From: the human T2T-CHM13v2.0 reference genome, Homo sapiens
Assembly (NCBI RefSeq): GCF_009914755.1
Contig: NC_060927.1
Length of the DNA: 64,000 nt
Strand: one strand, 5' to 3'
Made by a program: the position numbers and the translations under genes. This document shows positions 22,668-29,002 of the stretch, piece after piece (the first letter of the stretch is position 1; each line of letters starts with the position of its first letter). The notes beneath the pieces are model-generated. The model made no database searches. It saw only the letters and a program-made list of their open reading frames with translations, and was not told where the DNA came from.

Positions 22668-23156
22668 TGAATTTGAATATATTTGATGTGTTTTAAACCA
22701 CTTTAGTCATTATCCTGACTAATGCTCAAACTGTCTGTGCCTTCTTTGGGCAGTGAGAGCCTTTTCTAGTAGCCTCCTAAGTCCTTTTGACAGGACGTTA
22801 GTAGTTTTGATGACTTTGTTAATTTTTTGACTTTTTTCTTATCAACCTGAGAGAATAAACTTTGCTTTTTGACATGCCAAAATGTTCCTACCCGCCACCT
22901 CCAGTTACCAAATCCCAGCAGCATTTTCTTTTTTTTTTTTAACTTTGTTTTTTTTATACTTTAAGTTTTAGGGTACATGTGCACATTGTGCAGGTTAGTT
23001 ACATATGTATACATGTGCCATGCTGGTGCGCTGCACCCACTAACTCGTCATCTAGCATTAGGTATATCTCCCAATGCTATCCCTCCCCCCCCCCCCACCC
23101 CACCACAGTCCCCAGAGTGTGATATTCCCCTTCCTGTGTCCATGTGATCTCATTGT

Positions 23157-26976
<3,820 letters not shown>

Positions 26977-27039: not shown

Positions 27040-27990
27040 TTACATTTTGGCATGATTTTGCAGCGGCTGGTACCGGTTGTTCCTTTCCATGTTTAGCGCT
27101 TCCTTCAGGAGCTCTTTTAGGGCAGGCCTTGTGGTGACAAAATCTCTCAGCCTTTGCTTGTCTGTAAAGTATTGTATTTCTCCTTCACTTATGAAGCTTA
27201 GTTTGGCTGGATATGAAATTCTGGGTTGAAAATTCTTTTCTTTAAGAATGTTGAATATTGGCCCCCACTCTCTTCTGGCTTGTAGGGTTTCTGCCGAGAG
27301 ATCCGCTGTTAGTCTGATGGGCTTCCCTTTGAGGGTAACCCGACCTTTCTCTCTGGCTGCCCTTAACATTTTTTCCTTCATTTCAACTTTGGTGAATCTG
27401 ACAATTATGTGTCTTGGAGTTGTTCTTCTCGAGGAGTATCTTTGTGGCATTCTCTGTATTTCCTGAATCTGAACGTTGGCCTGCCTTGCTAGATTGGGGA
27501 AGTTCTCCTGGATAACATCCTGCAGAGTGTTTTCCAACTTGGTTCCATTCTCCGCATCACTTTCAGGTACACAAATCAGACGTAGATTTGGTCTTTTCAC
27601 ATAGTTCCATATTTCTTGGAGGCTTTGCTCATTTCTTTTTATTCTTTTTTCTCTAAACTTCCCTTCTCGCTTCATTTCATTCATTTCATCTTCCATTGCT
27701 GATACCCTTTCTTCCAGTTGATCGCATCGGCTCCTGAGGCTTCTGCATTCTTCACGTAGTTCTCGAGCCTTGGTTTTCAGCTCCATCAGCTCCTTTAAGC
27801 ACTTCTCTGTATTGGTTATTCTAGTTATACATTCTTCTAAATTTTTTTCAAAGTTTTCAACTTCTTTGCCTTTGATTTGAATGTCCTCCCGTAGCTCAGA
27901 GTAATTTGATCGTCTGAAGCCTTCTTCTCTCAGCTCGTCAAAATCATTCTCCATCCAGCTTTGTTCCGTTGCTGGTGAGGAACTGCGTTC
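27040..27990 (-). pseudogene. L1 ORF1p lacking its first 22 codons (no native AUG); otherwise stop-free
   Basis: ERSSSPATEQSWMENDFDELREEG...REKG...ARREW...YPAKLS...QNHAKM*. The first in-frame ATG is at 27954 (canonical M35, giving 304 aa). Confidence 0.93.
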
Positions 27991-29002
27991 CTCAGATGGA
28001 AATGCAGAAATCACCCGTCTTCTGTGTCGCTCACACTGGGAGCTGTAGACCGGAGCTGTTCCTATTCGGCCATCTTGGCTCCTCCCCCATCAGCATTTTC
28101 TTTGAGATTACTTTTGCATCCGTCTCTTCTTTCATTTTCCTTTGCCCGGTGTCAAGTTCAATTCATAATGGCCCCATCATGAGACTGTTAACAGTTCCTC
28201 CTTTACTTGGTCCCCTTTTAAAATCTTTTCTCCTTACCCACACCAGAGAGACTTATCAAAAAAAGAAAAAAAAAAAAGCTGGCCCAGGTGGTCCCCAGTT
28301 TACTCTGAATTTCCTGACACCTGTCTCTACCTTCATGACTTTGTTGAAGATGATCCATAATTTCCACTTCTGAAAATTCCAGGAACATTATCAGGCCTCA
28401 GTTCAAAAGCCACCTCCCTCCAGGAGTTTTACAGGCCATGAACCATCCTTGTTTGCTTTTTTCTTCTGACATTTTTCCCTCAACACTTCATATCTGAGTT
28501 ATCTATTTACATGTCTATGTAGCATTGAATGAATAACTAGAAACATAAAATAACTCAGATCAGAGATATGTTACTGTTATTTCCAATATTCAATTACTCC
28601 TTTATTTTAAAAAATGTTTAAAAGATACTTGACTAATAACATTTTCTGGCACTGTTTCCCAATTCTCCAGTGAGATGTAAATGAGCTACAGCCCCTAGAA
28701 AGCCCATCTAAGCAGTGGCTCAAATGCTTTATCTTGCACTTGACATATTAATATTGCACAAAGAAAATGAGCTGAATTCCTAAGTGAACAGTAGGACAAA
28801 CAGGAAATGTCACTGTGATCAATACCACTTTTATCATGTCTTTCTGGAAGCAGAAGAAAAGAAAAAGAAAGAACTTCCAGAAAATAAAATATAATTCTAC
28901 CAGGTCAAGTCAGAATGAGTTCTATCATATTTAATCACATTGTTTTCAGTCTTTATGGCCTATGGTCAAGAATATAGTGATATTCTTGTGAGAAACCATC
29001 TA

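What the first reader, a model, noticed from the sequence alone, without database searches (positions are those of the whole stretch)
27960..28088. Intronic L1 is a genomic fossil of a spliced L1 mRNA (5'UTR donor ~97 joined to ORF1 acceptor ~976)
Seen: on the minus strand the element starts at the authentic L1 5' end (28088) and runs 98 nt to ...TTTCCATCTGAG. It then continues without a gap into GAACGCAGTTCCTCACCAGC (junction 27991|27990), and a single TSD pair brackets the whole element. Known: in young L1 consensus, CTGAG is followed by GTACCG (a splice donor) and GAACGCAG is preceded by CCTCTCCTCCTCCAAAG (a polypyrimidine/AG acceptor inside ORF1). The missing ~880 nt is therefore exactly a GT...AG intron. 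Inference: this is a spliced integrated retrotransposed element (SpIRE, 97/976 class), not an ordinary deletion. It has lost most of the sense promoter, the antisense promoter/ORF0 and the ORF1 AUG, but keeps the YY1 site (CAAGATGGC). The class is published and rare; I cannot tell whether this copy is catalogued.
Basis: partly seen in the sequence, partly recalled or inferred. Interest (0 to 1): 0.8.

Follow-up and report, generated by a model that had tools for sequence, protein, structure and literature searches.

The report
Known spliced L1 copy in CADPS
This L1 retrotransposon in the first intron of CADPS is a DNA copy of a spliced L1 messenger RNA, but it is already listed in a 2018 catalogue of such elements, so it is a correct reading of an ordinary, known thing.

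Summary
On the minus strand an L1 starts at 28088, runs 98 nt to CTGAG (27991), and continues directly into ORF1 sequence at 27990. It ends in an A-rich tail and is bracketed by one 13-nt target-site duplication.

In 17 of 17 unspliced full-length L1 copies from the same genome, the missing 851-875 nt begins with GT. It ends with a pyrimidine run plus AG.

The same junction occurs at 24 other loci in this genome, each with a different 5' flank.

The copy is already catalogued. Larson et al. 2018 (PMC5860796), S1 Table, lists it as SpIRE(97/976)-2: L1PA2, chr3, CADPS, same orientation, TSD 13. The first 188 letters of their printed filled-site sequence match the window exactly.

The element is dead. 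The ORF1 start codon is lost, and ORF2 reads as four separate ATG-to-stop ORFs.

Verdict: interpretation supported, already known, low interest.

One side result: 15 of the 25 junction-bearing loci are not among the 11 published copies.

The parts
28091..28103 (-). 5' copy of the 13-nt target-site duplication (AAAGAAAATGCTG)
   Evidence: Larson 2018 S1 Table gives TSD length 13.
28089..28090 (-). two extra bases (AT) between the TSD and the L1 start
   Evidence: Larson 2018 S1 Table: '5' 2 untemplate[d]'.
27991..28088 (-). first 98 nt of the L1 5'UTR, the part upstream of the splice donor. It includes CAAGATGGC at 28077-28069.
   Evidence: It aligns at 94-98% to the 5' ends of 16 of the 17 full-length copies (85% to L046).
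27990..27991 (-). splice junction: CTGAG joined to GAACGCAG
   Evidence: The missing piece is GT...AG in 17 of 17 unspliced copies.
27040..27990 (-). ORF1 remnant. It lacks its first 66 nt and the start codon. The frame is open for 304 aa from the ATG at 27954 to the stop.
   Evidence: ORF 27040..27954; equals residues 35-338 of the 338-aa ORF1 of the closest full-length copy, 293 of 304 identical.
23157..26976 (-). ORF2, not one open frame: read as four separate ATG-to-stop ORFs of 210, 123, 324 and 522 aa
22932..23156 (-). 3'UTR and A-rich tail
22919..22931 (-). 3' copy of the 13-nt target-site duplication

Best explanation
A full-length L1 of the L1PA2 group was transcribed. Its RNA was spliced from the weak donor just after 5'UTR nt 97/98 to the acceptor inside ORF1, 66 nt past the start codon. 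The spliced RNA was then copied into CADPS intron 1 by ordinary target-primed reverse transcription. That left a 13-nt target-site duplication, an A-rich tail, and a nick site read as CTTT/G.

Because the spliced RNA cannot encode full-length ORF1p, intact ORF1p must have come from another L1 in trans. This step is inferred for this copy; it was shown experimentally for an engineered 97/976 construct.

The inserted copy was dead on arrival. It lacks most of the 5'UTR and the ORF1 start codon, and its ORF2 is no longer one open frame.

Shown here: the anatomy, the GT...AG ends, the recurrence of the junction, and the catalogue entry. Inferred: the RNA splicing event itself and the trans-complementation.
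For: 1. Anatomy and TSD.

2. The missing segment begins with GT and ends with a pyrimidine run plus AG in 17 of 17 unspliced copies from the same genome.

3. The same junction is present at 25 loci in this genome, including this one: 18 and 7 more. All have different 5' flanks. Of the 12 uncatalogued copies that align colinearly to the 3' end, 6 have a TSD word longer than in any of 200 shuffles.

4. The only other catalogued L1PA2 copy of this class (chr14, L037) is not this copy's sister. A tree of 14 copies over 5036 columns places the two on opposite sides of a split with 100/99 support, each among unspliced full-length copies. The window copy is 98.5% identical to a full-length chr12 copy and 97.8% identical to the chr14 SpIRE. 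So the junction arose at least twice within this subfamily.

5. Larson et al. 2018 (PMC5860796; I read sections 7, 8, 13, 15, 17, 21, 22 and searched supplements S1 Table and S1 Data) list this locus as SpIRE(97/976)-2. They show that a 97/976 construct makes N-terminally truncated ORF1p, does not retrotranspose in cis, and moves at low level when ORF1p is supplied in trans.

6. The ORF1 start codon lies 66 nt upstream of the acceptor in the closest full-length copy, as that paper states.
Against: - No RNA evidence was examined here.
- Both ends of the missing piece share the three bases AGG, so the breakpoint can be placed in four ways and only one gives GT...AG. The join by itself is therefore also compatible with a 3-nt microhomology event.
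- Larson et al. state that only 97/790 products were detected in their own RT-PCR. Detection of the 97/976 spliced RNA rests on Belancio et al. 2006 and 2008, which the library does not hold and which I did not read.
- No empty site, orthologous locus or second human haplotype could be inspected.
- The tree used only 12 comparison copies, chosen because they scored highest among the 34 candidates scored out of 12,824.
Confidence: 0.93

Rival explanations
1. A full-length L1 inserted here and later lost about 874 nt through a genomic deletion between the short shared bases (AGG) at the two sites.
For: The three bases AGG are shared at both ends. The sequences just downstream of donor and acceptor also look somewhat alike: three unspliced 5'UTRs matched the 29-nt junction pattern within 2 mismatches (L034-L036).
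Against: The same join occurs at 24 other loci with different flanks. It falls exactly at GT...AG with a pyrimidine run in 17 of 17 unspliced copies. Independent DNA deletions would not be expected to choose this pair of sites again and again.
Confidence: 0.02
2. The L1 reverse transcriptase jumped from ORF1 to the 5'UTR on an unspliced template during insertion, skipping the segment at a point of microhomology.
For: The 3-nt microhomology at the join. No RNA data were examined here.
Against: A template jump has no reason to respect GT...AG plus a pyrimidine tract, nor to recur at 25 loci. The same donor is also used with other acceptors: by chance L014 carries the donor joined to a different downstream site 350 nt before the ORF1 acceptor, and Larson 2018 lists 97/622, 97/790 and 97/853 classes.
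Confidence: 0.02
3. The splicing happened earlier. This copy is a daughter of an older spliced element that was itself transcribed and mobilised in trans.
For: A 2025 preprint (10.1101/2025.02.02.635956; passages only) reports a 97/622-type spliced element that regained activity by using a host gene promoter.
Against: Among the rows of the tree, this copy lies closest to an unspliced full-length element (path 0.015 to L038), though no well-supported clade of up to half the rows holds it. The only other catalogued L1PA2 copy of the class sits across a 100/99-supported split. A 97/976 element lacks most of its promoter and functional ORF1p. A lost or polymorphic parent cannot be excluded.
Confidence: 0.03

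Closest known systems
SpIRE97/976 (5'UTR/ORF1 spliced integrated retrotransposed elements; Belancio et al. 2006/2008, Larson et al. 2018)
   Same: The junction, donor and acceptor are identical. It has the TSD, the A-rich tail and a truncated ORF1. This very locus is entry SpIRE(97/976)-2.
   Different: Nothing of substance. The first exon is 98 nt here against 97 in L1.3 numbering. I could not compare with L1.3 itself. For 16 of the 17 full-length copies from this genome the aligned length equals the stretch of the window segment covered, so those alignments are gap-free.
SpIRE97/622 and SpIRE97/790 (intra-5'UTR spliced L1 copies)
   Same: They use the same donor after 5'UTR nt 97 and the same route of spliced RNA followed by retrotransposition.
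   Different: Their acceptors lie inside the 5'UTR, so ORF1 stays whole and the spliced RNA can move in cis once. The 97/976 class loses the ORF1 start and needs ORF1p in trans.
Processed pseudogenes of cellular genes
   Same: An intron is removed at the RNA level and the intronless copy is inserted by the L1 machinery with a TSD and an A tail. This is established knowledge, not tested here.
   Different: Here the spliced RNA is L1's own, and the 'intron' is most of its promoter plus the start of its first gene.

Membership tests
SpIRE97/976 | L1 5'UTR up to the donor (nt 97 in L1.3 numbering) joined directly to ORF1 at the acceptor (nt 976) | tested here: met
   Junction CTGAG|GAACGCAG at 27991|27990.
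SpIRE97/976 | The missing segment is bounded by GU and AG in unspliced L1 | tested here: met
   17 of 17 unspliced copies from the same genome.
SpIRE97/976 | Loss of the first 66 nt of ORF1, including the start codon; downstream in-frame AUG left | tested here: met
   the ATG lies 66 nt upstream of the acceptor in L038. The window ORF starts at the equivalent of residue 35 and runs 304 aa.
SpIRE97/976 | Hallmarks of L1 insertion: target-site duplication, 3' A tract, endonuclease-type nick site | tested here: met
   13-nt TSD and A-rich tail. The nick site CTTT/G is read from the flank and agrees with S1 Table.
SpIRE97/976 | Listed in the published catalogue | tested here: met
   S1 Table row SpIRE(97/976)-2 and the matching S1 Data entry. 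188-nt exact match to the window.
SpIRE97/976 | Origin from a spliced RNA rather than a DNA deletion | not testable with these tools
   Only indirect support: recurrence at 25 loci and a non-sister position relative to the other L1PA2 copy.
SpIRE97/976 | Subfamily L1PA2 | not tested
   Taken from S1 Table; no labelled subfamily reference was at hand. The copy's own branch length is 0.009 changes per site.

The most novel reading that the evidence does not exclude
The published catalogue of this class (11 copies) may be less than half complete. This genome holds at least 25 loci with the same junction, and 15 of them are not among the 11. By position, none of the 15 lies near a listed site. For 4 of the 15 the 5' flank was also searched for in S1 Data and not found, while a positive control was found. 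Most are as diverged as the published L1PA4 copies or more so. If real and unreported, ORF1-defective spliced L1 RNAs were rescued in trans more than twice as often as recorded, and probably over a longer period.
Probability: 0.55. Interest if true: 0.25.

Novelty: already known. Interest (0 to 1): 0.1.

Why it matters
For this locus it matters little. It is a correct re-discovery of a catalogued, inactive element, and there is no sign that it affects CADPS: no annotated exon lies in it.

The class matters modestly. It shows that L1 RNA is spliced and that defective RNAs can be mobilised with ORF1p from another element.

The side result, more copies than the published list, would slightly raise the estimated frequency of that rescue.

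Tried and rejected
- Belancio et al. 2006 (PMC1415225) and 2008 (PMC2278003) are not held. What they report about spliced RNA and their ten genomic copies is known to me only through Larson 2018.
I read the sections instead.
- I tested whether the chr14 L1PA2 SpIRE could be parent or sister of this copy. This was rejected by identity (97.8%, against 97.9-98.5% for 10 of the 12 full-length copies; two were lower, at 97.8% and 97.7%) and by the tree.
- Of the 33 pattern matches, three were shown to be unspliced 5'UTRs with no ORF1 part adjacent (L034-L036). Six more were set aside unexamined because they keep GGTAC or GGCAC at the donor.
- Published copy 11 (chr15, UNC13C) was not recovered by my searches. 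It keeps only 9 nt before the junction, too few for the 29-nt pattern.
- Subfamilies of the extra loci were not assigned, because no labelled L1 library is at hand.
- For 6 of the 12 complete extra copies no convincing TSD was found (L050, L052, L053, L056, L060, L062). In L050, though, a 10-nt word sits exactly at the tail end and one base before the L1 start.

Full report
**What is in the sequence**

Read on the minus strand, the flank ends with AAAGAAAATGCTG (28103-28091) and then AT (28090-28089). An L1 then begins with GGGGGAGGAGCC at 28088.

After 98 nt the sequence reads ...TTTCCATCTGAG (27991). It continues without a gap into GAACGCAGTTCCTCACCAGC (27990 downward), which is ORF1 sequence.

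At the other end, the L1 3'UTR runs into an A-rich tail (22959-22932). The same 13-nt word, AAAGAAAATGCTG, follows at 22931-22919.

In one search this shared word (13 nt, ending 2 nt before the L1 start) was longer than the longest shared word in any of 200 shuffles of the 3' flank (maximum 11).

**Coding state**

One search lists a 304-aa ORF from the ATG at 27954 (ORF 27040..27954). This is the ORF1 remnant.

ORF2 is read as four separate ATG-to-stop ORFs of 210, 123, 324 and 522 aa between 26976 and 23157.

In the closest full-length copy (L038), ORF1 is 338 aa and its ATG lies 66 nt upstream of the acceptor. The window ORF equals residues 35-338, with 293 of 304 identical.

**Gap ends**

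I did not use a recalled consensus. The window's own genome can be searched, so I fetched unspliced full-length copies from it:
- five that matched the ORF1 side of the junction at 100% (L011-L013, L015, L016);
- the twelve highest-scoring full-length matches to the 5-kb body (L038-L049).

In 17 of 17, CTGAG is followed by GT (GTACCG in 15, GTTCCG in 1, GTACCA in 1). In all 17, the ORF1 side is preceded by a pyrimidine run plus AAAG (16 copies) or AGAG (1 copy).

The stretch in between is 851-875 nt, and 874 nt in 10 of 17. The missing piece is thus a GT...AG unit with a pyrimidine tract.

One caveat: both ends share AGG. The breakpoint can therefore be drawn in four ways, and only one is GT...AG. 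That shared AG|G is what splice-site consensus predicts, but it is also a 3-nt microhomology.

**Recurrence**

A 100-nt probe across the junction scored 40 of 1762 candidates. A 29-nt pattern allowing up to 2 mismatches gave 33 matches, against 0 for the reversed pattern.

Alignment of the two halves of the junction to fetched loci showed them abutting at 25 loci, including this one: 18, and 7 more. Every one has a different 5' flank.

Three pattern matches (L034-L036) were unspliced 5'UTRs. Six more were set aside unexamined because they keep GGTAC or GGCAC after CTGA.

These counts are lower bounds, because the tool scores only the best candidates.

**Is the junction inherited or recurrent?**

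The only other catalogued L1PA2 copy of this class is on chr14 (L037). Over the 5031-nt body:
- the window copy is 98.5% identical to a full-length chr12 copy (L038);
- it is 97.9-98.3% identical to nine further full-length copies, and 97.8% and 97.7% to the other two (L048, L049);
- it is 97.8% identical to the chr14 spliced copy.

A maximum-likelihood tree of these 14 rows (5036 columns) puts the two spliced copies on opposite sides of a split with 100/99 support. Each sits among unspliced copies, so they cannot be sisters under any rooting. The junction therefore arose at least twice in this group.

This fits repeated splicing, not one deletion that was then copied. The comparison set is small (12 copies) and was chosen by similarity to the window copy.

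The window copy's own branch is 0.009 changes per site. With a recalled neutral rate of about 1-2 per 1000 sites per million years, that is a few million years. This is my inference, and it is consistent with the published L1PA2 label.

**Comparison with print**

Larson et al. 2018 (PLoS Biol, PMC5860796) define spliced integrated retrotransposed elements (SpIREs). I read the abstract, sections 7, 8, 13, 15, 17, 21, 22 and passages, and I searched supplements S1 Table and S1 Data.

They count 116 copies of 97/622, 4 of 97/790 and 11 of 97/976 in hg38.

S1 Table, sheet SpIRE(97-976), row 3 reads: SpIRE(97/976)-2, PA2, chromosome 3, start 62847188, length 5146, CADPS, Same, CTTT/G, TSD 13, 5' 2 untemplated.

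S1 Data prints its filled site as chr3:62847188-62852492. The first 188 letters match window 28153-27966 on the minus strand with no mismatch. So this copy is catalogued, and every structural detail I read agrees with the entry.

The printed empty site differs from the window at one base of the 3' flank. That is an ordinary difference between the two assemblies.

**Mechanism**

The same paper shows the following for an engineered 97/976 L1:
- it makes N-terminally truncated ORF1p of about 33 and 27 kDa from downstream AUGs;
- it does not retrotranspose in cis even with a strong promoter;
- it moves at low level when ORF1p is supplied in trans.

Their abstract states that both kinds of SpIRE lack transcription-factor sites and have reduced promoter activity. 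The donor lies in a RUNX3 site, which they propose explains why it is retained.

Applied to this copy: splicing of a full-length L1PA2 RNA, rescue by ORF1p from another element, and insertion into CADPS intron 1 in the gene's orientation. The result was an element dead on arrival. The splicing and the rescue are inferred for this copy.

Larson et al. detected only 97/790 products in their own RT-PCR. The RNA evidence for 97/976 comes from Belancio et al., which I could not read.

The positions of the antisense promoter and ORF0 inside the lost segment, and of the YY1 site at the start, are recalled by me. The paper's text says only that the 5'UTR holds them.

**Side result**

Ten of the 11 published copies correspond, by chromosome, approximate position and in two cases flank letters or comments, to L001-L005, L007-L009, L019 and L022.

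The eleventh (chr15, UNC13C) keeps only 9 nt before the junction, and my searches missed it.

The other 15 junction loci are L006, L010, L017, L018, L020, L021, L023, L024 and L027-L033. They lie on chromosomes or at positions far from any listed entry.

For four of them (L006, L010, L020, L021) the 30-nt 5' flank was absent from S1 Data, while a positive control flank was found.

I refetched them whole as L050-L064:
- 12 of 15 align colinearly with the window element from the 5' end across the junction to the 3' end, at 91.7-94.0% identity; 11 do so in one piece and L062 in two;
- one is split by a younger L1, and two end early within the fetched stretch;
- among the 12, six have a flank word after the A-rich tail that is longer than in any of 200 shuffles (L055, L057, L058, L059, L061, L064: 10-24 nt);
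- six do not.

They look like older members of the same class. I did not assign subfamilies, and I cannot say that no later paper lists them. My literature checks were the two searches and the passages.

**Verdict**

Interest is low.

Noticed in passing
L050-L064 (own genome; first seen as L006, L010, L017, L018, L020, L021, L023, L024, L027-L033): Fifteen further loci carry the same 5'UTR/ORF1 junction but are not among the 11 published SpIRE97/976 copies. Twelve align colinearly to the 3' end, and six of those have a clear TSD after the A tail. They are 91.7-94.0% identical to the window element, so probably from older subfamilies.
   Followed up: partly
L014 (G000:C1:205596900-205598250): This copy was picked only as an ORF1 match. 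It has the same donor joined to a different site 350 nt upstream of the ORF1 acceptor (CTGAG|CTTTGAAGAG). That fits the published 97/622 class. I did not check whether it is in the published list.
   Followed up: no
L034, L035, L036 (own genome): Unspliced 5'UTRs of older L1 copies match the 29-nt junction pattern within 2 mismatches. The bases after the donor resemble those after the ORF1 acceptor. Short junction probes can therefore give false spliced-copy calls.
   Followed up: partly
window 22885-22895 (3' flank, minus strand): The hg38 empty-site sequence printed in Larson 2018 S1 Data differs from this assembly at one base of the 3' flank (GGGTAAGAAC there, GGGTAGGAAC here). This is an ordinary single-base difference between assemblies.
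   Followed up: no
L051 (G000:C3:138142800-138148800): One of the extra spliced copies is interrupted. About 1 kb of unaligned sequence is followed by the 3' end of another L1 that is 98.5% identical to the window element.
   Followed up: no
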